64,000 nucleotides of DNA from Eledone cirrhosa (Eukaryota). Each line of letters opens with the position of its first letter. Within the stretch, counting starts at the first letter, position 1. The notes under the pieces were generated by a model. That model ran no database searches, was not told the origin of the DNA, and saw only the letters and a program-made list of their open reading frames with translations. The stretch is taken from the NCBI GenBank assembly GCA_964016885.1, contig OZ024742.1, forward strand, positions 74,214,001 through 74,278,000. The letters run 5' to 3'. Below are positions 11,086 to 62,140 of the stretch, in pieces. The translations under genes and the position numbers were made by a program.

Positions 11086-11408
11086 AATATATATATATAT
11101 ACACACACATGTATAGGTAGAAATACACACACACACACCCCTATACATACACACACATATATAAATACACACACACACACATACACGTGCGTGTGTGTGT
11201 GTGCGTACATAAACATATAGGCAGACAAACTATAAATACACACACTCTCGCAGGTGGGAGTATAAAAGGGGGTACCAAAAAATGAAAAAATGAAAAAAAG
11301 GGGTGGTATTATACTCCAGAAGAACTGTCGAATGCTTCGAATCAGTTAAAATTATATATTTTTGTTGAATAACCGACAAAATAAATATTCCCTATGCTTA
11401 TAAATGCG

Positions 11409-12475
<1,067 letters not shown>

Positions 12476-12834
12476 TTTTTTAGCTATTTTTTAGCTATTT
12501 TTTTTCATTTGACTTAAGATCCTCCCCCCTACTTTCTACCATACCTTTAACACATACACACCCACCACCTTCATTCTTTACCCAGATCACTTTTTAACTA
12601 TATACCCTTATCCAGATCTCATCACAAACACTCACTTTCTACTACAACTTTTACATCCCTTTTCTCCCTTACCTGTTCTTGATAATTGTTTTTATTATTT
12701 TATTTCAGTTTTATTCCCCCTTGTCCTTATTTACCCACTAGGTTTTTAAGTGTACTCACATAAGGTTGTATGTGTCTCCCCCTCCATGCAGCCCCTTTTC
12801 GCTCTCGTTCTCTGGCACCTCCATATATATATAG

Positions 12835-19007: not shown

Positions 19008-22000
19008 ACTAGCTTCAAAGTGCCTTCTTTTCCACACTATCTCTCTAATGCCAGAGGGGGTCATCCTAGCGCCATATTTCTATACTGTATCACTCAAGCT
19101 TCCCAGTGCCATAGTTGCCCACCCTAGCTCCGCAGTGCCATAGTGCGGCACCCTAACTCCGAAGTGCTGTATTTTTCCCACCCTATCTCCCCATTGCCAT
19201 ACTGCGACATCCTAGCTCCATATATCCATACTGTGTCACTCAAGCTTCCCAGTTCCATAGTGTGTCACCCCAGCTCCGCAGTGCCATAGTATGGCACCCT
19301 AACTCCAAAGTGCCGTATTTTCCCCACCCTATCTCCCCATTGCATTACTGCGACATCCTAGCTCCATATTTCTGTACTGTGTCACTCAAACTTCCCAGTA
19401 CCATAGTGTGCCATTCTAGCTCCGCAGTGCCATAGTGCAGCATCCTAGCTTTAAAAGTGCCATTTTTTCCACACTATCTCCCCATTGTCATAAAGGGTCA
19501 CGTTAGCTCCATATTTCCATACTGTGTCACTGAAGCTCCCCAGTTCCATAGTGTGTCACCCTAGCCCTGCAGTGCCATAGTACGGCACCCTAGCTCCGAA
19601 GTGCCGTATTTTTCCACACTATCTCTCCATTGCCATACTGCGACATCCTAGTTCCATATTTCCATACTGTGTCACTCAAACTTCCCAGTGTCATAGTGTG
19701 CCACGCAAGCTCTGCAGTACTGTATTTTTAATCTGTCACTGACCCTTATTATTTTTAATCCGGTACTGATCATTTGTGTTTTGAATCTAGCTCTCAAACT
19801 TTTAATCCGGCACTAATCCATAATGTTTTTAATCCGGCACCGACCCGTATCATTTTTAGTGCGCCACCCAAGCTCCCCACTGCCTTATTGCAGCACCCAA
19901 GCTTCAAAGAGCCATATTTTAAACACTATCTGCCCATTGCCATGGGGTCACCCTAGCTCCATATTTTCATACTTATTAATTATAATCCGGTACCGACCCT
20001 TATTATTTTTAAACCGTCACTGACACTAATTATTTTTAATGGGGCGGGGCACTCATCCTTATTAATTTTAATCCGGCAGTTACCCTTATCAGTTTTAATG
20101 CGGCACCGATCATTTGTTTTTTCAATCTGGCACTCAAACTTAATTTTAATTCAGCACTGACCTTTATCATTATTAATCCGGTACTGACCCTTATTAATTT
20201 TGATCAGGCATTGATCATAAGTGTTTTGAATCCGGCACTGAAATTTACTATTTTTAATCCGATACCCACCCTTATTATCTTTAATCCGGCACTTAAAGTT
20301 ACTATTTTAATTCGGCACTTATCATTAGTCATTTTAATCTGGCACTGACCCTTATTAGTTTTAATCCGGCACTTATCCTTATTAAATTTAATCCGAAACA
20401 AGCCCTTTTTTGATCCGACACTAATCATTTGTGTTTTTAATCCGACACATAAATTTACTATTTTCAATCTGGTACTAATCCTTATCAATTTTAGTCCGTC
20501 ACTGACCCTTATTATTTTTAATCAAGCACGCATTAATGCTTATTATTTTTAATCATTGCCGCATTAATGTTTTTAATGCGGCAATGATCATTTAAAAAAA
20601 AATCTGGCTCTTAAACTTATTTTAAATCCGGCACTTAAAATGTCTATTTTTAACCCGACACTTCTCCTTATTAATTTTAATCCGGCACTAACCCTTAATA
20701 TTTTAAATGCGGCACTGACCCTTTTCATTTTTAATTCGGCACTTAAAGTTACTATTTTTAAATAAAGGTAAATGCCGAATTAAAAATAATAAAGGTAAAT
20801 GCCTGATTAAAAATAAAGATAAATGCCGGATTTAAAATAATAAATGTAAATGCCGGATTAAAATTAATAAGGATAAATGCCGGATTTAAAATAGTAATAA
20901 GGATATTTGCCGGATTAAAACTAATAAGGATAAATGTCGGATTAAAAATAAGGCAAAGTGCCGGATTAACAATAATAAATGTAAATGCCGGATTAAAAAT
21001 AAAAATGTAAATGTCAGATAAAAAATAATAAGGATAAGTGCCGGATTAAAAATAATAAGAGTAAATGCCGGTTTGAAAATAAGTGTAACTGCCGGATTAA
21101 GAATAATAAGGATAAATGCCGCATTAAAAAAATAGGGATAAATGAAAGATTATAAATAATAAATATTAGTGCCGGTTAAAATTAATAAGTGTAAATGCGG
21201 GATTAAAAAATAACAAGTGTAAATGCCGGATTAAAGATATTAAGTGTAAATGCCGGATTGAAATTAATAAAATTAATAAAAATAAAAATAATAAGGATAG
21301 GTGCTGGCTTAAAAATAATAAAGATAAATGCCGGATTAAAACTAATAAGGATAAATGTCGTATTAAAAATAAAAAGGATGTGCCGGATTAAAAATAATAA
21401 GTGTAAATCTCGGATTAAAAATAATAAAGGTAAATGCTGGATTTAAAATAAGTGTCAGTGCCGGATTAAAATTAAAAATGATAAATGCCGGATTAAAAAT
21501 AATAAAGGTAAATGCCGGATTTAAAGTATTAAAGGTAAATAAGTCGAAATGCCGGATTAAGAGTATTAAGAATAAATGTTGGATTAAAAATAATAAATGT
21601 GAGTGCCGGATTAAAATTAATAATGATAAATGCCGGTTTAAAAATAATAAGTGTAAATGCCGGATTAAAAATAATAGCTGACATTTATTATTTTTATCCG
21701 GTACTGATACTTATTATTTTTAATTCGGCACTGATCATTTGCGTTTTTAATCAGACACTTAAATTTCTTTTTTTTATTCCGAAACTAATCCTTATTTTTT
21801 GTGTGCAACCCAAGCTCCGCCGCGCCCTAGTTTCACAGAGCCACATTTTACCACACTATCTCCCCATTGCCATAGGGGGTCACGCAAGCTCCATTTTTCC
21901 ATACTGTGTCACTGAAGCTCCCCAGTTCCATAGTGTGCCACCCTAGCTCCGCAGTGCCATAGTGCGGCATCCTAGCTCCGAAGTGCCCTATTTTGTCATC

Positions 22001-31839: not shown

Positions 31840-33070
31840 TCTACGGATAGAAATGTGCCCTACCCAGAATCCCCTTAAGACAGAAGGGCACCTTACCCAA
31901 AATCCTCTTAAGATAGAAGTGCACCTTACCCAGAATCTCCTTAAGATAGAAGTGTACCTTACCCAGAATCCTCTTAAGATAGAAGTGTACCTTACCCAGA
32001 ATCCCCTTAAGATAGAAGTGCACCTTACCCAGAATCCCCTTAAGATAGAAGTGTACCTTACTCAGAATCCCCTTAAGATAGAAGTGTACCTTACCCAGAA
32101 TCTCCTTAAGATAGAAGTGTACCTTACCCAGAATCCCCTTAAGATAGAAGTGTACCTTACCCAGAATCCCCTTAAGATAGAAGTGCACCTTACCCAGAAT
32201 CCTCTTAAGATAGAAGTGCACCTTACCCAGAATCCCCTTAAGATAGAAGTGCACCTTACCCAGAATCCCCTTAAGATAGAAGTGTACCTTACCCAGAATC
32301 TCCTTAAGATAGAAGTGCACCTTACCCAGAATCCCCTTAAGATAGAAGTGTACCTTACCCAGAATCCCCTTAAGATAGAAGTGTACCTTACCCAGAATCC
32401 CCTTAAGATAGAAGTGCACCTTACCCAGAATCCCCTTAAGATAGAAGTGTACCTTACCCAGAATCCCCTTAAGATAGAAGTGTACCTTACCCAGAATCCC
32501 CTTAAGATAGAAGTGTACCTTACCCAGAATCCCCTTAAGATAGAAGTGTACCTTACCCAGAATCCCCTTAAGATAGAAGTGCACCTTACCCAGAATCCCC
32601 TTAAGATAGAAGTGTACCTTACCCAGAATCCCCTTAAGATAGAAGTGTACCTTACCCAGAATCTCCTTAAGATAGAAGTCCACCTTACCCAGAATCCCCT
32701 TAAGTTAGAAGTGCACCTTACCCCAAATCCCCTTAAGATAGAAGTGCACCTTACCCCAAATCCCCTTAAGACAGAAGGGCACCTTACCCAAAATCCCCTT
32801 AAGATAGAAGTGCACCTTACTCAGAATCCCCTTAAGATAGAAGTGTACCTTACCCAGAATCCCCTTAAGATAGAAGTGCACCTTACCCAAAATCCTCTTA
32901 AGATAGCAGTGTACCTTACCCAGAATCCCCTTAAGATAGAAGTGCACCTTACCCAGAATCCCCTTAAGATAGAAATGCACCTTACCCAGAATCCCCTTAG
33001 GATAGAAGTGTACCTTACCCAGAATCCCCTTAAGATAGAAGTGCACCTTACCCAGAATCCCCTTAACTCT
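31840..33070. repeat. 33-bp minisatellite, about 37 homogeneous copies, with degenerate flanking copies (about 31230-31840 and to 33145)
   Basis: Unit ccttacccagaatccccttaagatagaagtgya; produces 11-aa repeat ORFs on both strands. Confidence 0.95.
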
Positions 33071-43501: not shown

Positions 43502-43532
43502 ACCTTCCTCTCTCTTTGTTTAACCTGCCAAC

Positions 43533-46500
43533 ATGGCCGTATTAAGAGTAGGATGTTTAAATGTTCCAGGCCTGGGATCGTCCTGGAAGCAGGGTCACCT
43601 GCTCAACGACCGCAGGTCTATAGAAATGGATGTAATTGCAGTCAGCGAGACCAGGATTTCCGACACGCGCACACTAGCCCCCATTTTCAACGACTATCAG
43701 ATCTTTGAATCTGTTAGCCAGCCGGGAATGGGAGGCGGGGTGGAAGTGCTGTTTAGGAAAGGCCTGGATCTCGAGGTAAGGTCGATCTTCCGGGACCCGG
43801 AAGGGGAGTTGGTGGTCCTGGACGTGAACAATAATGAAGGTGGTGCCTTTAGACTGGTGGCCGTCTATGCTCCTACTGGGGCAGGACGGCCGGACTTCTT
43901 TAGACGCCTGGAAGCCTTTCTGGGTACGTCTCGCCCTTTACTGTTAGCGGGGGACTGGAACGGCATCTTAGACGCACACTGGAACTGTGTGGGAATATCC
44001 GATAGGAGCGGGGGGTGCAAAAGCCTCAAGAACCTGATCAGCCAGTTCCAACTGTCAGACAGATACCGACTAGATTTCCCTACTGCGCCAGTGTGGACCT
44101 GGGCTAACCGCATAGGGTCATTTAAATCGTATATAGACAAGATATTCATTAGGAAAATAGACAGAAATAGTGTAAGCTGTCTACGTTTTGAAACGGTCGC
44201 CTAATCATATCACAAGTTTGTGATCTGTATGGTCGACCTAGATAAGACGCGTAGGTTAGGACCTGGTTACTGGAAGCTAAACATGTCATTTCCGGCACGT
44301 AAGGCTTACAGGGACCAGGTCAACAATTTAGTTAAGAAAAAGTTGACAGGAGGAGTCGTCAACAATAGATGGTGGGGGGCTCTCAAAAGAGAGATTAGAG
44401 TAATGTCGATAGAGTTTAGCAAAGAAGTAGCATTAGAGAAAAATAGAAAGGAGGGAGAGTTGGTAGATAAGTTAGACGAGGCTATTGGTAGTGTCATTGC
44501 AACTGATGTGCTAGCGGCGAGAATGGCATTAGACCATTTCTTCAATGCGAAACACGAAGGCGCGTGCTCTGAGAAACGAGGGAACCAAAGCTGTTCGATG
44601 GGCCCACGTGGCAGAGGCGCAGCGTGGTAATAAAACCACGATTCGCTCTTTGACGGACCGAGACGGGCTCGAGCTGAGCGATTCCAAGAGGATGTGTGAG
44701 GCCTTTCGCCAACATTTTGCTCAGTTGTTCGGGGGAAGTGGCGGGTCAGAGATGGTGGCGGACTTCAGTCCCTACCTCGACGGCTTGCCGCAACTCTCGA
44801 TGGCTGACGCTGGGCGCTGAGAAAGGCCAATTACTTCAGCCGAGATTCAGGATGCCCTTGTAGGCTGCATGAGGCGCAAGTCACCCGGTTTGGATGGTCT
44901 GCCCTACGAGCTTTACGTAAATATGCCAGACTTGTTCTCGGATCTCCTCGAAGCGCTCTACAGTATCTGGCAGCAAAACGGGAGTATTCCCAGTTCTGTG
45001 AGCCGGGGCGTAGTGACGCTGATAAGGAAAGACGAGAACAAGAGGGACACATTAGACAATTTCAGGCCCATAACTCTGCTTAACACAGAGTTTAAGATTT
45101 TGGCCAGGGTGTTAGCGAAGAGGTTGGCGCTTGTCGTCGGGGATTTGGTTGGGGAGGAGCAAACTTGCGCAATCCCAACCAGGTCCATACACGACAACCT
45201 CCACCTAATGCGATACATCATAGAGAGGGTAGGGTATAAACCTGGCTTCGGTGGGGCTCTTATCAATTTAGATCAATCGAAAGCATTCGATAGGGTCGAC
45301 CATCGGTACCTGGAGGCTGTCCTCAAGGCGGCTGGCTTCGGCCCCGTCTTCAGAAGCTGGATCGCTGCAATGCACAGCGGCACCTGCTCGATGGTCAAAA
45401 TTAATGGCCACCTCTCGGAACCGTTTCAGGTCTCCCGATCGGTCCGTCAAGGGTGCCCTCTCTCCTCCCTTCTGTACGTATTGACTCTCGAGCCTTTATT
45501 GCGGAAGCTGGAGCTGTTGCAGGGCATCCCGCTCGAACCGGGACGCGGAAAGGCTGTGTCGGCTTATGCGGACGACATCACCGTGATGGTGTCGGACACC
45601 TCAGAAATCGAGGTGGGCGGCAACTTATTGGAGGAATATGAAAGGTTGACGGGAGCAAAGCTTAACCCGGAAAAGTCAGTGGGCTTGCAACTCGGCACCT
45701 GGAGAGGCAAGTCCATGCCGTCCAACAACGTCGTTAGGCGCTGGACGGACGGACCGGTAAAGTTGCTAGGGGTTTGGTTCGGGCCAGACCTCCAGGTGGA
45801 TAAGAATTGGGACGAGGTACGGGCAGCGTAGTCAGTCTCACCCAGAAATGGGCTGGGATGAAGCTATCACTGAAAGGTCGGGCGGAAGTGGCGAACGCCT
45901 ACATCGCGTCCGTCATCTACTACCGTCTGACTGTCGTCCCTTGCCCCCGTTCGCGCCTCGCCATCTTGGAACGGCTCCTCTTCAAATTCTTGTGGAGGGG
46001 TCAGGTTCCGCTGGTGAGGCGGTCCATCTGCTGCCAGCACCCTCTACGTGGAGGGCTGGGCATGCCGTGGCTAATGATGCGCAGGCACGCGCTGAGGCTG
46101 CGGCATCTCCAGATATTCTGCCTAAACGGTGAACAGGTGTGGTCGCCGTTTGTCAGACGGGCCTTTCGGCAGCTCGTTTCTTTGATTGAGTTGCAGTCCT
46201 GGGTCAAGAAGAGACCGAGACTGGGTGACTGGCATCTGGAATGTTGCCAGGCACTCACTGCCCTCTACCAGGCGGGCAATGCGGTCAGTGGAACTTCCAC
46301 TCTCGAGTTCTATAGAGGATTAGTGGTGGGCAAGTGCGACGACGCACTCGGAGAGGCTCTGGGAGTCAACGAAGTCGAACTAACCAGTCTGTACCGGAGG
46401 ACTTTCGAGTCGGGGACGATGGATAATTTCCAAAAATCCCTCGCTTGGCACTGCCGGTTCGAGATAAACTCTACAGGCACGGAAGTGCTGTCAGACGGAC

Positions 46501-46918
46501 CTGCCCGAGATGCGCGCAGAGCGACGAAACCGTTCTGCACGCACTCGTCCAGTGTCCGTGCATTACTGACTTGTGGAGTTATGTTGAACAGCTGTTGTCG
46601 CGTGTAGAACGGATCCGGCTATCGGCCGAGTCCATAGTGAAGATCGACCCGCCGCCTTCTTTTGGCCAGGAAAGGCAGGCAATTTTCCTCTGTCTGGTGG
46701 CAGTAGCGAAAGAGGTTGTATGGTAGACGAGGTTGAAAGGACTGAAGACAGACACTTTTCTCTTCGGCCAATCCCTCATCAACTTTTTCAAGTTTCACTT
46801 GGAAAGGAAGATGAGGGTGGAGAGAGAAGTGCTTCCCCCCAGTACAATTGCTGAAAGGTGGGTGAATGTGGCGAGAATGGCCCGTGTGAGTGGGCCTGCT
46901 CTGGTCATGCGGCTGTAG
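43533..46918 (+). pseudogene. Tx1-like ORF2: APE endonuclease, RT and C-terminal zinc finger; disrupted
   Basis: LNVPGL, SET, VYAP, GDWN, YIDKI, PGYWKLN, KSPGLDGLP, FRPITLLN, LDQSKAFDRVDH, RQGCPLS, YADD, CPRC...HALVQC. Confidence 0.92.
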
Positions 46919-47192
46919 GTAGGTAAATTTGAAGAGGAGAGGGGGTGCCCTTCCAGGGTTCTCTCGAAGCGTCGGGTCGTTCAGGACTGGTGGGGTATCT
47001 GAGCGAACCCTAGGTGGTCATCCCCGCTATTGGGGAATTTTTTCTTGTTGTAATTTTCTTGTTACTTTATTGTTACTTTGTTATTGTTACTTTGTTTATT
47101 CATATTGTTTACTCGATTTTTCTGTAAAACCCCACTGTCCCAGTCTTTTGTATTGTCCCCTATATGTCGGCCCTTGTGGCCAATAAATGAAA

Positions 47193-47224
<32 letters not shown>

Positions 47225-47399
47225 GTTACTATTATTATTACCTTTTTTTTTTTTTCAAATTCAATGATGTTCCAGAACAATATAAAAGAGATAATTGGCA
47301 ATTTAGGTTCTGGAACAAAAAAGATAATTGGCAATAAGGGCAGGGGCCCCAGGTTATCACAGCCTAGGCCCGCTCGTCATCGTGCCATTGTAATAGAGC

Positions 47400-50300
47400 C
47401 AAACAAGGCATTTAGTCTTGGCTGCTGGAACGTACGGACGCTGCTTGACAGGGATTCCTTGGAGCGTCCTGAACGAAGCACAGCTCTTGTTGCAAAGGAG
47501 CTTCGACGTTACGATCTTGACATCGTGGCTTTATCTGAGACGAGGCTAGCTGGAGATGGTCATCTTACAGAATTTTATGGAGAATATACATTCTTCTGGA
47601 AAGGAAGAGATGAAGGAACCAGAAGAGAGGCTGGGGTAGGATTTGCTGTTAAGACTGTTCTTGTGAATAAATTAGAAGAATTCCCAGTAGGGATTAGTGA
47701 GCGTCTTATGTCCATGAGAATTCCGCTGGACAAAGGAAGATATGCGACCCTAGTGAGTGTGTATGCTCCAACTATGAATTCTGTCGATGAAGAAAAAGTG
47801 TCCTTTTACCATGCCTTGAAAGGTGTTTTAAGAAATATCCCTCAGGCAGACAAAGTCATCGTGCTTGGTGACTTTAATGCTAGAGTGGGTAGCGATTTTA
47901 ACACATGGAATGTAATCGGAAGGCATGGGTGGGAAAGCGTAACAACAATGGTATGCTCCTGCTGCAGATGTGTGAGGAGCTGGATCTGTGTGTTACCAAC
48001 ACCATGTTCCAACAAAAGAACAAATTCAAGACCACATGGATGCATCCTGCATCTAAGAAATGGCATCTTTTGGACTACGTCCTAGTCAGGATGCGTGACA
48101 GACAGGATGTGCAGTGTGTTCGTGCTCTTCGTGGAGCTGAGTGCTGGACGGACCACCGCCTGGTACGCGCAAAAGTGAAACTAATCACTAAACGTAAAAT
48201 CCGGGCTCCTGGTGTTGCCCTGCCCAAAAGATTGAATGCTGCTCGTCTTAAGGATAAAAATGTGAAGAGGACATTGGAAGAAGAGATGCAGCTGCAGATC
48301 TTGGTGAGGATTGGCCGACCCTTAAAAGTCGGTTTATGATGTAGGCAAGCGTGTTCAGGGATTGGTGCAGAGAAAACATCAGGACTGGTTTAATGAGAAT
48401 GATGTACATATAGAAGACTTGTTGGCTGATGAGAGGCGTGCTCTGTCACGCTACTTGACGGAAAAAACACAGGAGAGGTAATACGTTGCATGAGGAACTC
48501 AAGGATGTAAAATCACGTGTTAGGCGGAGTCTTTCTCAGATGAAGGATCAGTGGTGGAGTGAGAAGGCTGGTGAGATACAAACTGCGTCAGATTCCAATA
48601 ACACAAAGCTGTTGTACAGTCTCTTGCGTGAGGTTTATGGGCCGTCTTCTCTGGTGACACCGCTTCGCAGCAAGGATGGCAGATAACTTTTTCGTGACTC
48701 ACAAGGAATTCTACGAAGGTGGCGAGAGCACTTTGATGATCTTTTGAATCAGTCGTCTGTCGTCAGTGAAGATTTCCTCAATCTCATTCCAGAAAGTCCT
48801 GTGAAAGTAGCTCTCGCAGAACCCCCGACGCTTGTGGAGGTTGCAGTGGCTATCTCGAAGCTGAACAGTGGAAGGTCTCCAGATATGGATGACATACATG
48901 CTGAGCTCCTACAATATGGTGGTGAGAGACTCCTGCAACATCTTCACTCTTTGTTTGGCAGGATATGGGCTAATGAATCCGTACCTGAGGACTGGAGAGA
49001 TGCAGTAATGGTGGTCTTGTACAAGGGAAAGGGTAACAGGAATGATTGTGGGAACTACAGAGGTATATCATTGCTTTCTGTCGTAGGGAAAGTTTTATGT
49101 AGGGTGCTTCTGGACCGTCTACTGACACACATTGCAGATTGTGTTCTTCCTGAAAGTCAATCTGGTTTTCGTGTTCGACGCGGCACTACTGATATGATCT
49201 TCTCAGCTAGACAGCTCCAGGAGAAGTGCATGGAACATGGTTTGGATCTGTATCAGGTTTTTGTCGATCTGACAAAAGCTTTCGATACTGTTAACAGAGA
49301 TGCATTATGGAAGGTTCTCCAGAAACTTGGTTGCCCTGATAAGTTCCTTGCTTTAGTTAGGTTTTTCCATGACGACATGAAGGCTTGGGTTAATGTCGGA
49401 GCCTATCTCAGTAAAAAATGGAGTGAAACAGGGGGATATTCCATCACCGACCCTGTTTGCCATATACTTTGCAATGGTTTTCTGTATTGCATTCAGGAAT
49501 TGCGAGCATGGTGTTTACATCCGATATCGAACCTCAGGCAGCATATTTAACATCAGGCGCTTTGCTGCGAAGACAAAAGTATTTACATCAATCATAAGAG
49601 ACCTCTTGTATGCAGATGATTGCGATCTTGTAGCGCACACAGAGAGTGATATGCAGCACATTTTGAATGCATTTTCTAACGCTTGCACTGCCCTAGGATT
49701 GACTGTCAGTCTCAAGAAAACCGTCGTCATGTACCAACCTGCTCCTGGTAAGCAGTACACTGAACCAAATATCTATGTGTATGGTAAACGACTTGGAGTG
49801 GTTGATCAGTTTGTCTACCTGGGAAGCACTGTCAATCGATACAGAAACCTTGACAGTGAAATCTCACTTAGGATTAGGAAAGCAAGTGATGCTTTCGGAA
49901 AGCTAGAAAGGCGACTCTGGGGTCGGTGAGACATATGCAGGAGGACAAAGGTAAAGGTGTACAAGGCATGTGTGCTCTCTTGTCTTCTTTATGCCTGCGA
50001 GACCTGGGTCACATATCGACATCACCTTAAGCAATTGGAGCGTTTCCATCAGATGTGTCTCAGACGGATCCATGGCGTTCACTGGAGGGACTACATCAGT
50101 GATGTCGAGATTTTGGAAAGCTCTATGTGTGACAGTATAGAAGCTCTTGTGCTTAAGCAACGACTCCGTTGGAGTGGTCACCTTGCCAGGATGAAGGATT
50201 CTAGAATACCAAAACAACTCTTTTATGGAGAGTTGGTTAAAGGAAAACGACCGCCACATAAACCAAAAAAGAGGTATAAGGATTCCTTGAAAGCCTCTTT

Positions 50301-50780
50301 GAAAGACGCTAACATCTCTGCTGATACATGGGGAAATATTGCTGCTGATCGTAATAAATGGAGAAAGACTGTATATGAGGGAAAAGTTGCCTTTGAGGCA
50401 TCTCGAATCGCATACGAGAAAGTAAAGCGGGATGTGAGGAAGGGCATTGCTGTTGCACTTCCAGACGGAGAGGGTCCTCCTATGGTGCTGACATGCAGCG
50501 TCTGTGCGAGACTCTGCCTAAGCAAAGCTGGACTCGAAAGTCATTTTCGCAGTCATAAAGTAAGACCAGTGGTTGACTACCAGGCTGCTGTTGGAGATGC
50601 TACTCATCATGCTTGCCAAACATGTGGTAGAGAATGTAAATCAGCAGGAGGGCTCAAGCGACATGCAAAAGTACATGAACTCCAACCACAGCCGACTATT
50701 CCCAGTGAATGTTTTGGTTGCCGACTCTGTGCAAGACATTTTAGATCATTGGCTGGGCTAAAAAGCCACATTCGATCGTA
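47400..50780 (+). mobile_element. RTE/BovB-type LINE: APE, RT and three C2H2 zinc fingers; frameshifted
   Basis: WNVRTL, LSETR, GVGF, YAPT, GDFNARVG, LDYVL, TDHRLV, NYRGISLL, DLTKAFD, GVKQG, LYADD, YLGS, LRWSGH; (GT)n after the stop codon. Confidence 0.93.
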
Positions 50781-50884
50781 GCGCTGTTAGTTGCTATCGT
50801 GTGTGTGTGTGTGTATAGATATGTTTATGTGTGTGCGTGTGTGTGTATATATATATGTATATGTATATTATTATTGTTGTTGTT

Positions 50885-52088
50885 GTCGTTTGCTCTTTCG
50901 CTTTTTGTGGAAGGGACGCGCTCCGATGGTCAGGCGGTCCATCTGCTGTCAACACCCGCTACGTAGAGGGCTGGGCATGCCGTGGCTGATGATGCGCAGA
51001 CACGCGCTCAGGCTACGACATCTCCACCTCTTCCTCGACGGTGATCAGGTGTGGTCGCCGTTTGCTAGACGCGTTTTTCCCCAGCTCGTCTCCTTGACGG
51101 AGCTGCAGTCCTGGGTCAAGTAAAGACCGAGAGGGAGCGCTTGGAGACTGGAATGTCTTCAGGCGCTCACAGCCCTCGACCAATCGGGCAATGTGATCGG
51201 TGGAAACTCTACCTTGGCGTTCTATAGGGGATTAGTGGAGGGGAAGAGCGACGACGTACTTGGAGAAACTCTAGGCTTCGACGAAAATCAACTAGCCAAT
51301 CTCTTCGGAAGGACTTTCAGGCCGGGGCCTATGGATAACTTCCAGAAATCCCTGGCCTGGCAGTGCTACCGGGGAGCTTTGCCAGTTCGGGTTAAACTCT
51401 ACAGGCATGGAGGTGCCGTCAGCCGGGCATGTCCGAGATGCGCACAGGGCGACGAAACCGTCCTGCACGCACTCGTCCAGTGTCCGAGCATTGCTGACTT
51501 GTGGGTTTATGTCGAACACCTGCTGTCACGTGTAGGACGGATCCAGCTATCAGCTGAGTCCATCGTGAGGATTGCCCCGCCCTCTTCCTTTAGCCGGGAA
51601 GGGCAGGCAGTTTTTATCTGTCTGGTGGCCATGGCGAAAGAGATAGTATGGTGGACACGTTTGAAAGGGCTGAAGACGAGCACTTACCTCTTCGGTGATG
51701 CCCTGATTAACTTTTTCAAATTTCATTTGAAGAGGAAAATCAGGGTAGAGAGGGAAGTGCTCTCTTCCCAGCATTTTGTTGAAAGATGGGTGAGAGAAGC
51801 AAGTATAGCCCGAATGAATGGGCCTTCTCTGAGTATGTGTCTGTAAATTAAAGGTGGAAAACTGGGAGAGGGCACTTGCCCTGGTGGTCAGGGCCACTGT
51901 GGTCTTTTAATGGGCTTTCTCCACAAATGTCCCTCGGAAGTCTCCCCCTATTGGGGAATTTTTCTTTGTTATTTTATTTCAACCTCCGTTGTTTTTACAC
52001 GCAGAAATGCCCATTTGTACCGTCCTGTATTGTCCTGTACTGTCCTTAATGTCTACTTTATGTAAACCCTTGTGGTTAATAAAGAAAA

Positions 52089-53010: not shown

Positions 53011-53419
53011 TCATCTCCGACACTTGCTACAGTATTCCGAGTGCTTCTGGTATGCTCTGGGATCGCTGGCTTAGGGTGACCCCGGCCTCGTTGAACAAGA
53101 AGAAGAGGAAGTAGAAGAAGAGGAAGAAGACGAAGAGAAAGAAGTGAATGTGTGTGAAAGTGTGTGTGTTTGTGTATATGTGTGTGAGAATGTGTGTGTT
53201 TGCGTGTGTACTGTGTATGTGTGTATGTGTGAGTGCATGTGTGTTTGTGTCTTTGTGTGTATGTGTGTTTGGTGGGAGTATATGTGTGATGTTATTGACT
53301 GTTCTTAACTTACTGAAATAATGGTCGGAATGTTTGCAACATGACTAATGACAGCAGTTATACAGCAATGGCGGCGGCGGCGGCGGTGGTGGTGGTGGTG
53401 GTGGTGGTGGGGCGTGAGG

Positions 53420-54570
53420 TTGTGTATGATAGTGTGGTGGTGGTATTGTGGGGGAGGGGAGGGGGTGTTATGTATGATAGTGTGGTGGTGGTATTGTGGG
53501 GGAGGGGAGGCGGTGTTATGTATGATAGTGTGGTGGTGGTATTGTGGGGGAGGGGAGGCGGTGTTATGTATGATAGTGTGGTGGTGGTATTGTGGGGGAG
53601 GGGAGGGGGTGTTATGTATGATAGTGTGGTGGTGGTATTGTGGGGGAGGGGAGGCGGTGTTATGTATGATAGTGTGGTGGTGGTATTGTGGGGGAGGGGA
53701 GGGGGTGTTATGTATGATAGTGTGGTGGTGGTATTGTGGGGGAGGGGAGGGGCTGTTATGTATGATAGTGTGGTGGTGGTATTGTGGGGGAGGGGAGGGG
53801 GTGTTATGTATGATAGTGTGGTGGTGGTATTGTGGGGGAGGGGAGGGGGTGTTATGTATGATAGTGTGGTGGTGGTATTGTGGGGGAGGGGAGGGGGTGT
53901 TATGTATGATAGTGTGGTGGTTGTCAGGTGGGGCGTGAGGTTGTGTATGATAGTGTGTATGATAGTGTGGTGGTAGTAAGGAGAAGGGAGGGGTGTTATG
54001 TATGATAGTGTGGTGGTAGTAATGTGGGGGGAGGGTGGTGTTATGTATGATAGTGTGGTGGTGGTAATGAGGGGGAGGAGGGAGGGGGTGTTATGTATGA
54101 TAGTGTGGTGGTGGTAATGTGGGGGGAGGATGGGGTTATGTATGATAGTGTGGTGGTGGTAATGTGGGAGGGAGGAGGGGTGATATGTATGATAGTGTGG
54201 TGGTGGTAATGAGGGGGAGGAGTGAGGGATGTTTTATATATGATAGTGTGGTGGTGGTAATGAGGAGGGAGGAGGGGGTATTATGTATGATAGTGTGATT
54301 GTAATGAGGAGGGAGGGGGTGTTATGTATGATAGTGTGATGGTAATGAGGAGGGAGGGGGTGTTATGTATGATAGTGTGGTGGTGGTAATGAGGAGGGAG
54401 GAGGGGGTATTATGTATGATAGTGTGATTGTAATGAGGAGGGAGGGGGTGTTATGTATGATAGTGTGATGGTAATGAGGAGGGAGGGGGTGTTATGTATG
54501 ATAGTGTGATGGTAATGAGGAGGGAGGGGGTGTTATGTATGAGAGTGTGATGGTAAATGAGGAGGGAGAG
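53420..54570. repeat. G-rich 48-bp minisatellite, degenerating 3'-ward into shorter units
   Basis: Unit atgtatgatagtgtggtggtggtattgtgggggaggggagggggtgtt. Confidence 0.95.
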
Positions 54571-55687: not shown

Positions 55688-55744
<57 letters not shown>

Positions 55745-55748
<4 letters not shown>

Positions 55749-56025
55749 GGAATAGAATGAAACGAAATTTCATTTCTCACTCTTATTACGGCACTTACTT
55801 AAATGTAAGTATGTATGTATACAGACGTACAGTAGTATGTATATATATACACACATGCACACATATCTACATGCGCGTATCGGTTTACCGAACATTTATT
55901 ATAATGCTGGCTTTGTTTGTTTGTAAACAAACAAACAAACAGCCCGAATTATGCCGTACAGTGTTTAGGCAATCACGTCACCTTTTTGTTCAATACTGAC
56001 ACAGGAACGATGTACTAGTTTCAAG
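55745..56025 (-). mobile_element. Diverged, truncated copy of the 60927-61808 HHR unit
   Basis: Homology ends at gtactagtttcaag, inside HHR stem II. Confidence 0.8.
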
Positions 56026-56612
56026 TAAATATATATATATATATATATATATAAAGGTTAACATATACATAAAGTTATAGATATATACATGTTGCAACTG
56101 GTCACTTTTAAGCTCTATGAAGAATTAATAAATTAAAAATAAAAAAAATAAAAAATCAGAGCATTACATCATAAATCATGTCTTTTAGAATCATCAGATA
56201 ATAAAATATATACTATTTCTTCTTCTAATTAGCATAATTAACCATATAAAAAATCAATCAGAACAAGCTATAAGAATAAATGCTCTTATGGGGAAATCTC
56301 CGACAAATAACCGAACGTAGCGTCTTCGCGGCGGCCTCAATCGAGTATTTATCCAACATTTCGACAGCTTGTAGAAACTGACTAAATATACCATCAACCA
56401 TACACAATTAGGTGTAAAATTAAACTTAGAAGAAATCCGCACATACCGTAATTATATCTCTACCATGGTTTCTTCCTTATTTTAGACATCCAAATAATAG
56501 GAATGTCCTGAGTTAGGATTCATCAGGAGACAAACTCAAAATCAGACATCTAGATTTTCAATCCGATCCCGCCAAAAATAGATTCAAATAGTTTTTCCTA
56601 TATATATATATG

Positions 56613-56800
56613 TATAGGAAAAACTATGACCCCGACGGCAGAGCTCAAGCCGTTTCGACGGCTATTTCTAGTCCAGAAATAGCCGTCGAAACGGCTTGAG
56701 CTCTGCCGTCGGAGTCATACTTTTTCCCATAACCCACTCTACTTCCCTAAGTATTGAGTAATCTGGTGCGTTATGGTCCATCTGATTCCTTACCACAACA
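56613..56800 (+). mobile_element. Foldback mini-element family L with hammerhead 3' half
   Basis: Arms 56613-56669 / 56675-56731; GAAA cggc-ttgagctct-gccg TC at 56688-56710. Confidence 0.75.
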
Positions 56801-57175: not shown

Positions 57176-57191
57176 ATATATATATATATAT

Positions 57192-57381
57192 ATAGGAACG
57201 AGTAGGACCCCAACGGCTGAGCTCAAGCCGTTTCGACGGCTAATTCTGGACAATTAGCCGTCGAAACGGCCTGAGCTCAGCCGTCGGGGTCCTACTCGTT
57301 CCTATTACCCACTCTACTACCCTAAGTATTGATTACTTTGGTGCGCTATCGTCCACCTGGTTCCTTACCACATTTCCTTCG

Positions 57382-57382
<1 letters not shown>
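57192..57382 (+). mobile_element. Foldback mini-element family L, second copy
   Basis: Arms 57192-57245 / 57252-57305; GAAA cggc-ctgagctca-gccg TC. Confidence 0.75.
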
Positions 57383-59871: not shown

Positions 59872-60065
59872 AGTTTTAATATAGATGAGATTCTACAGGA
59901 CTAGAACTGTTTCATTCTTTAGAAATCATCAGATTCCTGATGATTTCTAAAGAATGAAACAGTTCTAGTCCTGTAGAATCTCATCTATATTAAAACTTTT
60001 ATACTCTGCTATGTATTGAGTACCTTACTTACTGTGGTTACCTCCGATTCAACCCGGAATAACAT
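59872..60065 (+). mobile_element. Foldback mini-element family K; HHR core lacking the 5' strand of stem I
   Basis: Perfect 61-bp arms 59872-59932 / 59937-59997 with 4-nt spacer; CTGATGA tttct-aa-agaat GAAA c..g TC starts exactly at the right arm. Confidence 0.8.
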
Positions 60066-60070
60066 ACCTA

Positions 60071-60867
60071 TACCCTCGCGTCCCCTTTATTTACGTGTCC
60101 CAACGACTTTTTTTAGCCGTTGCTCGCACCAACCGGAGGTATATGGTCTTTAAAGCGATGAAATACCTATGATAGTTGGAAGATCACTGATGAAGGACAA
60201 ACTTTTTTCATATGTAACCCATTTGCAACTCCGCAGCGCCCTTATTATCATATTTACACATATTTTTTCCTCTGCTGCTACACCGTCTTTTTCGTTCTAC
60301 GTATCTTTACCCTTTCTAGCAGTCTCTCTCTCTGTTAGCCTCTTCCTCACCTCACCCTTCACTCACTCATTCTCTGTCACTACCTCTCCTCCTCCTCCTC
60401 TTTCTTCCCGTTTGACCTGTGAGTAACTCTTTTCTCTCACATTCTCGGCCAAACTGGTCGGAATTTTTTCTCTCGCGTCTACGATTTCACAGAACTTATG
60501 TTTACCGAAGTCGCAGACCAGACCCTTCTTCCTCCCGTTAGACCTGTGCGAAATTCCTTCCTTGCTCACATTTCAACCAGGTTTGATGGTCGTTATTCTC
60601 TCGTTCACGATTTCACCAAACTTAAATTCATAGAAATCTGGGACTTGTTTCCTCCTTCCTCACTTTCTGTTGCCTCACCATTTTGTTCGTTTACCCTCGC
60701 GTCCCCTTTATTTACGTGTCCCAACGACTTTTTTTAGCCGTTGCTCGCACCAACCGGAGGTATATGGTCTTTAAAGCAATGAAATACCTATGATAGTTGG
60801 AAGATCACTGATGAAGGACAAACTTTTTTCATATGTAACCCATTTGCAACTCCGCAGCACCCTTATT

Positions 60868-60874
<7 letters not shown>
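60071..60874. repeat. About 183-bp direct repeats (60071-60253, 60692-60874) flanking a pyrimidine-rich spacer
   Basis: Near-identical copies 621 bp apart. Confidence 0.9.
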
Positions 60875-60929
<55 letters not shown>

Positions 60930-61215
60930 TTGAAAAAAATGAAAACGAAATTTCATTTCTCACTCTTAGTATGGCACTTACTTAAATGTAAGTATGTATG
61001 TATACGTACATACATATATGTATACAGACGTACAGTAGCATACATATATATATATATATATACATACAGGTACACATACATATATGCACGCATCAGTTTA
61101 GCGGACGTTTATTATAACGCCGCTTTATTCGTTTGTCAACAAACTGAACAGCCTGAATTTATGCCATACGGTGTTAAGGCAACCACGTCACCTTTTTGTT
61201 CAACACTAACACAGG

Positions 61216-61260
61216 AACGATGTACTAGTTTCAAGCTTGTTAGCTATCATCAGCACCGTT
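61216..61260 (-). ncRNA. Type I hammerhead ribozyme (tandem unit 1)
   Basis: Minus strand: aacggtg CTGATGA tagc-taacaa-gctt GAAA ctag TA catcgtt. Confidence 0.88.
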
Positions 61261-61494
61261 TACCCATCTGCCAGATAGTTGAACGTTCGAAAGTATATAC
61301 TTTCCTTATGAAAATTAACGGCTGAGCAGCCTAATTTGCATATTGAGTGAGTTAAATCGGTCAGGCATACCGAAAACGATAAGTTGAAAAAAATGAAAAC
61401 GAAATTTCATTTCTCACTCTTAGTATGGCACTTACTTAAATGTAAGTATGTATGTATACGTACATACATATATGTATACAGACGTACAGTAGCA

Positions 61495-61554
<60 letters not shown>

Positions 61555-61703
61555 CAGGTACACATACATATATGCACGCATCAGTTTAGCGGACGTTTAT
61601 TATAACGCCGCTTTGTTCGTTTGTCAACAAACTGAACAGCCTGAATTTATGCCATACGGTGTTAAGGCAACCACGTCACCTTTTTGTTCAACACTGACAC
61701 AGG

Positions 61704-61748
61704 AACGATGTACTAGTTTCAAGCTTGTTAGCTATCATCAGCACCGTT
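61704..61748 (-). ncRNA. Type I hammerhead ribozyme (tandem unit 2)
   Basis: Identical to 61216-61260. Confidence 0.88.
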
Positions 61749-61808
61749 TACCCATCTGCCAGATAGTTGAACGTTCGAAAGTATATACTTTCCTTATGAA
61801 AATTAACG

Positions 61809-62140
61809 ATTCTACCATTCACTAGAGTACAATGGATTCTACCACTCACTAGAGTACAATAGATTCTACCATTCACTAGAGTGCAATAGATTCTAACATT
61901 CACTAGAGTACAATGGATTCTATCATTCACTAGAGTACAATAGGTTCTACCATTCACTAGAGTACAATAGATTCTACCATTCACTAGAGTACAATGGATT
62001 CTACCATTCACTAGAATACAATGGATTGTACCATTCACTAGAGTGCAATATATTCTAACATTCACTAGAGTACAATGGATTCTACCACTCACTAGAGTAC
62101 AATATATTCTGCCATTCACTAGAGTACAATGGATTCTACC
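61809..62140. repeat. 27-bp minisatellite, about 12 copies
   Basis: Unit attctaccattcactagagtacaatgg. Confidence 0.95.

What the first reader, a model, noticed from the sequence alone, without database searches (positions are those of the whole stretch)
60927..61808. Tandem HHR dimer that could release a 488-nt monomer or circular RNA
Seen: two head-to-tail units, each with an identical intact HHR on the minus strand (61216-61260, 61704-61748), 488 nt apart. Stem III is the palindrome ACUAGU, with a 2-nt loop that is too tight for a monomer. A third, diverged copy at 55745-56025 is truncated in stem II. No credible protein is encoded. Established: non-LTR retrozymes are tandem non-coding repeats whose paired HHRs excise monomers that circularise. 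Inference: a candidate retrozyme, unusual in carrying an internal variable (UA)n tract.
Basis: partly seen in the sequence, partly recalled or inferred. Interest (0 to 1): 0.78.

Follow-up and report, generated by a model that had tools for sequence, protein, structure and literature searches.

The report
Penelope-spread hammerhead repeat, U6-like box
This is one of about ten thousand copies of a short non-coding repeat that carries a hammerhead ribozyme sequence and sits in TA microsatellites with the end pattern of Penelope-type retrotransposons, which likely copy it into new sites from a predicted small RNA circle.

Summary
The two identical type I hammerheads are real (minus strand, cut sites 61711|61710 and 61223|61222, 488 nt apart). 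They belong to a dispersed family with 10,412 exact copies of the core in a 3.0-Gb genome. The unit is 454 nt plus a variable (TA)n tract, so 488 is locus-specific; a sister family has no such tract. None of 110 loci shows the unit as the end of an ORF. Insertions carry the Penelope (PLE) footprint: (TA)n targets, partial tandems, a 5'-inverted arm, and a ~60-nt tail on one end only (26 of 29; 41 of 42). cDNA starts ~295 nt from the cut site and usually runs through it (51 of 64 arms), with excess stops just beside it. This fits a circular template copied by a TA-targeting PLE; young Hydra-clade PLEs are present. New: all three related families carry the box found upstream of this genome's U6, U6atac and MRP genes, though 5 nt closer to TATA. 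This locus's upstream unit lacks that box. Cleavage, circles and promoter are untested; no RNA data. Verdict: a non-LTR retrozyme with unusually clear mechanistic footprints.

The parts
60927..61808 (-). Whole insertion: 1.87 head-to-tail units, 5'-truncated at unit position 60, single arm (no inverted arm here)
60926..61379 (-). Complete 454-nt unit (downstream in RNA sense)
61380..61808 (-). Upstream unit, lacks positions 1-59 (including the octamer-like box); TA tract 34 nt longer
61694..61762 (-). Type I hammerhead 1 with extended stem I; core 61704-61748; predicted cut 61711|61710; U.U at base of stem II; palindromic stem III
61206..61274 (-). Type I hammerhead 2 with extended stem I; core 61216-61260; predicted cut 61223|61222
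61223..61710 (-). Predicted cut-to-cut monomer, 488 nt (would circularise; inferred)
61331..61342 (-). Octamer-like box, same as the box at -77 to -79 of U6 and RNase MRP genes of this genome
61294..61299 (-). TATA-like element 43 nt after the box; would place a start near 61269, just upstream of hammerhead 2 (inferred)
60927..60987 (-). Terminal ~60-nt tail with hairpin (60936-60960); present at one end only of inverted insertions
61498..61554 (.). Internal variable (TA)n tract of the upstream unit
60871..60927 (.). (TA)n microsatellite target next to the tail end
55738..56025 (-). Diverged copy (78%), 5'-truncated inside stem II, flanked by (TA)n on both sides
61808..62140 (.). 27-bp minisatellite abutting the truncated 5' end (not part of the element)

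Best explanation
This is a copy of a high-copy, non-coding tandem hammerhead repeat (a non-LTR retrozyme) that sits in (TA)n with Penelope-type ends and is likely reverse-transcribed in trans by a TA-targeting Penelope-like element from a predicted circular RNA. Steps: (1) inferred: a tandem array is transcribed through at least two ribozymes, likely from the U6-like box in each full unit. (2) Inferred: adjacent ribozymes pair through the ACUAGU palindrome and cut after GUA, releasing a 454-570-nt monomer that a host ligase closes. (3) Shown by the footprints: insertions begin at two fixed internal sites, unit positions 453 (tail end) and ~392 (tail-less end), each joined to genomic (TA)n. (4) Inferred: the PLE enzyme primes there from nicked (TA)n, rolls round the circle for a variable number of turns, and the two cDNAs join head to head, giving partial tandems with a 5'-inverted arm. 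The helper is most likely of the Hydra clade; Neptune is not excluded.
For: Copy number 10,412, control 0. Tail joined to (TA)n at 40 of 41 tail ends and 1,571 times genome-wide for one pattern, control 2. Inverted arm in 29 of 53 and 42 of 60 insertions; tail on exactly one arm in 26 of 29, on both in 0, and missing from the inverted arm in 41 of 42. The same geometry is seen in autonomous Hydra-clade copies here and is described for PLEs (PMC8557442). Units within an insertion, including opposite arms, differ by a median 0.36% versus 3.9% between insertions. Of 64 arms that reach the ribozyme, 51 read through it, up to 11 times in a row; 16 of 58 mapped 5' ends fall at positions 153-187, beside the cut at 157|158 (p 0.002 against uniform). 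Compensatory stem changes. Monomer MFE is a misfold (-19.0 vs -16.0 kcal/mol for the active fold without stem III); the swapped dimer reaches -38.0. Young Hydra PLE copies, near 100% identical over 601 nt of ORF, 2,486 candidates. Box plus TATA beats 300 of 300 shuffles in all three families.
Against: No RNA evidence of any kind. Li et al. 2026 found cleavage in only 1 of 9 Xenopus dimers in vitro. U.U at 10.1/11.1 weakens stem II. The read-through statistics fit uncleaved linear multimers as well. The 153-187 window was drawn after seeing the data, and RT stalling at the helix would also give ends there. No shared 3' sequence with any PLE examined. 0 of 29 independent Hydra-2 loci held retrozyme sequence. 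Direct joins to PLE ends can be nested insertions with target deletion. The box-TATA spacing is 42-43 nt versus 47-49 in five Pol III genes, and the unit has T4 and T7 runs. Most covariation comes from one sister family.
Confidence: 0.62

Rival explanations
1. Same non-autonomous PLE passenger, but the template is a linear, mostly uncleaved multimeric transcript from long source arrays; the ribozyme cuts rarely and circles play no part.
For: Arrays of 11-14 or more units exist and could serve as sources. 80% read-through per ribozyme equals what a weak ribozyme would give. U.U pair and predicted misfold. 8 of 9 Xenopus dimers did not cleave.
Against: The ribozyme and its extended stem are kept with compensatory changes across families only 67-78% identical. 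An 11-unit array of the T7-run subfamily (L082) would need 11 read-throughs of that run if Pol III makes the RNA, a circle needs one. Related animal repeats are mostly circular in vivo (PMC7229834).
Confidence: 0.22
2. The unit is simply the terminal repeat (pLTR) of an autonomous PLE not yet sampled, and the arrays are heavily 5'-truncated insertions of it.
For: All end features are PLE features. Li et al. 2026 derive Xenopus retrozymes from pLTRs. Only 110 of several thousand loci were read.
Against: 0 of 110 family-1 loci, and none of the loci fetched for the two sister families, show an ORF or a recurring 5' flank leading into the unit. Arrays of many pure units cannot arise by truncating an ORF-bearing element. 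The ribozyme has canonical, not minimal-PLE, proportions.
Confidence: 0.1
3. A dead or DNA-level satellite that spreads by duplication and unequal crossing-over; the hammerhead is a relic.
For: Tandem arrays with variable TA tracts; array units are near-identical.
Against: Thousands of dispersed sites with fixed 3' ends, variable 5' ends, inversions and a one-ended tail are retrotransposition footprints. Copies are 95-100% identical on many chromosomes.
Confidence: 0.06

Closest known systems
Metazoan non-LTR retrozymes (Cervera & de la Pena 2020, PMC7229834; Li et al. 2026, 10.64898/2026.07.22.740005)
   Same: Tandem non-coding units with one type I hammerhead each, low GC, coexisting with PLEs. 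Axolotl HHR_Amex2 also has a U.U at the base of helix II.
   Different: Unit 454-573 nt, longer than the 150-450 nt of the 2020 paper but inside the 51-972 of the 2026 one. (TA)n targeting, inverted arms and a one-ended tail were not in the passages read (0 hits for 'microsatellite' or 'inverted' in PMC7229834). No parent pLTR found here.
EN+ Penelope-like elements, Hydra and Neptune clades (Craig et al. 2021, PMC8557442)
   Same: Partial tandems, 5'-inverted copy, tail at one end, (TA)n target, hammerhead with palindromic helix III.
   Different: No RT or GIY-YIG ORF; arrays of pure units; tail ~60 nt (30-40 in the paper, ~90 in the Hydra family here); cut site ~235-295 nt from the ends versus ~40 nt from the tail-less end in Hydra-2.
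Non-autonomous Chlamys PLEs such as MRC1 (PMC8557442)
   Same: Non-coding PLE passengers with multicopy head-to-tail insertions.
   Different: Those generally share 3' sequence with their helper and Chlamys mostly lack hammerheads; this one has a hammerhead and no shared 3' end was found.
Newt satellite 2 and schistosome SM-alpha repeats
   Same: Hammerhead repeats with an internal promoter (newt: snRNA-type, Pol II; schistosome: Pol III), as summarised in PMC2220036.
   Different: Here the box matches this genome's Pol III-class genes (U6, U6atac, MRP) and not its U1/U2 genes. The primary papers were not seen.

Membership tests
non-LTR retrozyme | Type I hammerhead in each unit | tested here: met
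non-LTR retrozyme | Short head-to-tail tandem repeats, at least two consecutive complete ribozymes | tested here: met
   this locus; 23 of 53 and 20 of 60 insertions; 5,907 junctions
non-LTR retrozyme | No protein coding | tested here: met
   128-aa frame open in 7 of 65 units
non-LTR retrozyme | Low GC (<50%) | tested here: met
   GC 0.37 for 60001-62000
non-LTR retrozyme | Target-site duplication longer than 4 bp when present | tested here: inconclusive
   (TA)n targets hide any duplication
non-LTR retrozyme | Self-cleavage in vitro | not testable with these tools
   only folding energies
non-LTR retrozyme | Accumulates as circular RNA | not testable with these tools
   needs RNA; see decisive steps
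non-LTR retrozyme | Coexists with autonomous PLEs | tested here: met
   Hydra motifs RWR/DKT/CxCX5C and Neptune RT+GIY-YIG in flanks
non-LTR retrozyme (Li et al. 2026 origin model) | Sequence related to the pLTR of a PLE | tested here: inconclusive
   no match to two Hydra and one Neptune family by blastn; other families not sampled
autonomous EN+ PLE | RT plus GIY-YIG ORF attached to the repeat | tested here: not met
   0 of 110 loci
PLE-type insertion | 5'-inverted truncated copy | tested here: met
   29 of 53; 42 of 60; absent at this locus
PLE-type insertion | Tail at one end only | tested here: met
   26 of 29; 41 of 42
PLE-type insertion (Hydra, Neptune, Naiad) | (TA)n target | tested here: met
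   40 of 41 tail ends
canonical metazoan type I HHR (PMC4209133) | Helix I ~6 bp, helix II ~4 bp, 1-2 bp helix III with palindromic loop | tested here: met
canonical metazoan type I HHR (PMC4209133) | G10.1-C11.1 pair | tested here: not met
   U.U in 6 of 7 representatives, G-C in the sister family; U.U also in axolotl HHR_Amex2
U6-type (type 3 Pol III) promoter of this genome | Upstream box shared by U6, U6atac and MRP | tested here: met
U6-type (type 3 Pol III) promoter of this genome | Box-to-TATA spacing 47-49 nt | tested here: not met
   42-43 nt in three families
U6-type (type 3 Pol III) promoter of this genome | Transcribed region free of T-run terminators | tested here: not met
   T4 at 4, 66, 435 and T7 at 441; some subfamilies have T4 only
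U6-type (type 3 Pol III) promoter of this genome | Pol III occupancy and mapped start | not testable with these tools
   needs 5' RACE, inhibitor tests or ChIP

The most novel reading that the evidence does not exclude
A retrozyme with its own captured U6-type promoter: each unit carries the host's Pol III upstream box just before the ribozyme, one read-through makes a circle that contains the promoter, and Hydra-clade Penelope enzymes roll round that circle from two fixed internal priming sites. It would be a helper-unrelated RNA-circle parasite whose thousands of insertions directly record rolling-circle reverse transcription and explain the Penelope one-ended tail.
Probability: 0.3. Interest if true: 0.75.

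Novelty: new variant of a known kind. Interest (0 to 1): 0.55.

Why it matters
That PLEs mobilise animal retrozymes from circular RNA has been a hypothesis resting on co-occurrence and pLTR similarity (PMC7229834; 10.64898/2026.07.22.740005), and Craig et al. call an in vitro system the next task for explaining PLE tandems, inversions and microsatellite bias. This family shows those footprints on a 454-nt non-coding RNA with mapped priming sites, beside young Hydra-clade PLEs. It offers a small defined substrate for testing circle versus linear templates and the origin of the tail. The U6-like box gives a testable answer to how such repeats are transcribed. The class itself is known, and without RNA data the circle remains inferred.

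Tried and rejected
RNA evidence: no RNA holder listed. Laying 4 of the 6 listed runs (contigs of unknown kind) showed only sequence variants of the repeat; nothing on expression or circles. Naiad as helper: first guess from recalled motifs, dropped once the ORFs showed a C-terminal EN with Hydra motifs. 'Only 1 of 82 5' ends near the cut site': dropped as biased, since that sample required an intact core; redone on 60 tail-selected loci (one search used too narrow a window and classified only 25 of 60). Chimeras as proof of the helper: retrozyme joined without (TA)n to PLE-like ends at L044, L047 (Hydra-2), L038, L059 (a Hydra 3' end), L058, L077, L199, L231 (families not firmly assigned) and, through TA-like microhomology, to a Neptune tail at L039; 4 of the 6 cases examined for it pair a tailed with a tail-less end, 2 do not; 0 of 29 Hydra-2 loci had any; kept as a lead only. 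A U1/U2-type (Pol II) promoter: noticed by eye, rejected by profile (p 0.27, 0.83, 0.39; one of 7 training rows was misaligned). The (UA)n tract as key feature: sister family lacks it. Circular-fold z of -11.6: not used, self-complementary TA tracts inflate it. A tail-less-end regex failed; one search replaced it (30 ends in a TA run, 97 continuing, 7 other). Whole-window Rfam showed no hammerhead in the 150 of 172 rows displayed. Earlier scan findings: none.

Full report
Observation. The minus strand carries two hammerheads identical over 45 nt, at 61216-61260 and 61704-61748. Each has stem I, CUGAUGA, a 4-bp stem II with an AACA loop, GAAA, the palindrome ACUAGU and the cut triplet GUA; the cuts fall at 61711|61710 and 61223|61222, giving 488 nt. 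The base of stem II is U.U. Rfam scores the motif below threshold (HH9, E 0.03). The insertion spans 60927-61808: one full 454-nt unit preceded by a unit lacking its first 59 nt and with a TA tract 34 nt longer. It ends in a (TA)n run and its 5' end abuts a 27-bp minisatellite. The copy at 55738-56025 is 78% identical and is cut off inside stem II. Unit positions below count along the RNA strand from 61379; the cut is at 157|158.

The ribozyme looks selected. Seven representatives, from subfamilies to a sister family, keep an extended stem I with a small bulge, stem II and the palindrome: 94.6% of cells paired, 7 pairs changed on both sides, 0 of 500 shuffles as high, slid controls 29-46%. Most changes come from the one sister family, which has G-C where this family has U.U. 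U.U at this place recurs in other hammerhead families in the same loci and in axolotl HHR_Amex2, which cleaves weakly as a monomer and well as a dimer (PMC7229834). Folding predicts a misfolded monomer (-19.0 versus -16.0 kcal/mol for the active fold without stem III) and a swapped dimer at -38.0, near the cofold minimum of -40.7. Dimer action of such ribozymes is established (PMC4209133; PMC6765202).

It is a large dispersed family. The 36-nt core occurs exactly 10,412 times in the 3.0-Gb genome, control 0. One degenerate pattern finds 5,907 unit-to-unit junctions and its partner 1,571 unit-to-(TA)n ends. I read the 50 loci holding the first 100 cores on contig C1 and 60 more taken in order from the tail-end list. 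Periods run 454-573 nt because the internal TA tract varies. Two sister families have the same layout: one 78% identical (636 candidates) and one 67% identical, with a 466-nt unit and no pure TA tract (83 candidates).

It is not attached to an ORF. PLE and LINE fragments are common nearby, but in none of the 110 loci does an ORF or a recurring 5' flank lead into the unit. Blastn found no similarity between the unit and two Hydra-clade and one Neptune-clade element. Rare autonomous copies could have been missed.

The ends are Penelope ends. Insertions stop at two fixed sites: position 453, after a hairpin, and about 392, each followed by (TA)n. Many have a head-to-head inverted arm: 29 of 53 and 42 of 60. 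The 60-nt segment between the two sites is on exactly one arm in 26 of 29, on neither in 2, on both in 0, with 1 off the locus; in the second sample the inverted arm lacks it in 41 of 42. Craig et al. describe this partial-tandem, inverted, one-tail structure for PLEs, and (TA)n targeting for Hydra and Naiad elements (PMC8557442). The genome holds PLE ORFs with the Hydra motifs (RWR, DKT, CxCX5C, C-terminal EN) and Neptune-type ORFs. One Hydra family is young, with 2,486 candidates and top copies near 100% identical, and shows the same tail geometry. Direct joins of retrozyme to Hydra sequence exist (L044, L047, L038, L059), but nested insertion with deletion explains some of them, and 0 of 29 Hydra-2 loci had any. 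The helper is therefore a TA-targeting PLE, Hydra more likely than Neptune (inference).

What was the template? Units within an insertion, on either arm, differ by a median 0.36% against 3.9% between insertions, so each insertion comes from one template. The 3' ends lie 235-295 nt from the cut site, so a cut linear monomer primed at its own end is excluded. In the tail-selected sample 64 arms reach the ribozyme and 51 pass through it, up to 11 times; 16 of 58 mapped 5' ends fall at 153-187 (p 0.002 against uniform, window chosen after the fact). A template that only sometimes ends or stalls at the ribozyme is either a religated circle or a poorly cut multimer. I favour the circle because the ribozyme is conserved, related repeats are circular in vivo, and rolling reverse transcription was proposed for both PLEs and retrozymes. 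Against it, 8 of 9 Xenopus dimers did not cleave in vitro.

A promoter-like box. Each full unit has an octamer-like 12-mer at 38-49 and a TATA-like run at 81-86. The same box lies at -77 to -79 in three U6 gene types and RNase MRP, and with one change in the best U6atac copy, but not within 110 nt of four U1 and three U2 genes. Its 10-nt core occurs 8 times in 990 kb of flank. A box-plus-TATA profile beats 300 of 300 shuffles in all three families, while a U1/U2 profile does not. Against a plain Pol III promoter: spacing is 42-43 nt, not 47-49, and T4 and T7 runs lie in the unit. The polymerase is unresolved. Newt satellite 2 has an snRNA-type promoter read by Pol II (seen only as summarised in PMC2220036). 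At this locus the only box lies between the ribozymes (61331-61342), so the 488-nt monomer would need read-through from upstream.

Comparison and novelty. By every sequence criterion I could test this is a non-LTR retrozyme; cleavage and circles are untested. Searches returned no paper describing one-ended tails, inverted arms or a U6-type box in an animal retrozyme; the library lacks most subscription papers and I saw no supplements. Papers seen: 10.64898/2026.07.22.740005 parts 1-3 of 5 (abstract to discussion); PMC7229834 parts 2-4 of 6 and passages; PMC8557442 passages and the Hydra section; PMC4209133, PMC6765202 and PMC2220036 passages; Coats 1994 and Ferbeyre 1998 not seen. Hammerhead numbering, the labels 'octamer' and 'Nematis-like', and the Pol III T-run rule are recalled, not from a call.

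Verdict. Real, a known class, with clearer mechanistic footprints than I found in print and an unexpected promoter-like box. Interest 0.55; best explanation 0.62.

Noticed in passing
window 10515 (+), 16039 (+), 8943 (-), 59661 (+), 59937 (+), 59857 (-): Further hammerhead cores of other families (first five pass a stem test; the last seen only as a core). Most look like short 3' ends of TA-targeting PLEs, some as inverted pairs.
   Followed up: partly
window 56599-56800 and 57177-57382: Two hairpin-shaped inverted insertions in (TA)n; their sequence is the 3' end of a Hydra-clade PLE (matches the UTR behind the L054 ORF), each with a tail on one arm.
   Followed up: yes
window 11345-12490 (-): 382-aa open stretch of a Hydra-like PLE RT; no Pfam RT hit, as for the other Hydra ORFs.
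   Followed up: partly
window 43524-51843 (+): Two nested or adjacent LINE remnants with APE endonuclease, RT and zf-RVT matches.
   Followed up: partly
L084:4860-6500: The 466-nt sister retrozyme has inserted into the internal TA tract of a family-1 unit, so the tract serves as a target for other TA-seeking elements.
   Followed up: yes
L034:6947 onward (+): A third, unrelated tandem hammerhead array (8 copies of one core, also with U.U at the base of stem II).
   Followed up: no
L033:4300-4380, L034, L039: The Hydra-1 family has a hammerhead-like fold whose first core motif departs from CUGA, yet copies are about 97% identical.
   Followed up: no
L086-L088, L144, L145 versus L098-L100, L138-L143: In this genome Pol III snRNA-type genes have an octamer-like box at about -78, in the proximal position, while U1 and U2 have a TCAGT motif at -56 to -58; both have AT-rich runs near -30.
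   Followed up: partly
L038 and L071 flanks: Two other repeat-like sequences carry the same box followed by related sequence; possibly another Pol III-type repeat.
   Followed up: no
window 60071-60263 and 60692-60884: A 193-nt direct repeat, 97% identical, directly beside the (TA)n target; not part of the unit.
   Followed up: no
window 31846-33066, 53386-54554, 61808-62140, 19972-21781: Minisatellite arrays of 33, 48, 27 and 27 bp.
   Followed up: no
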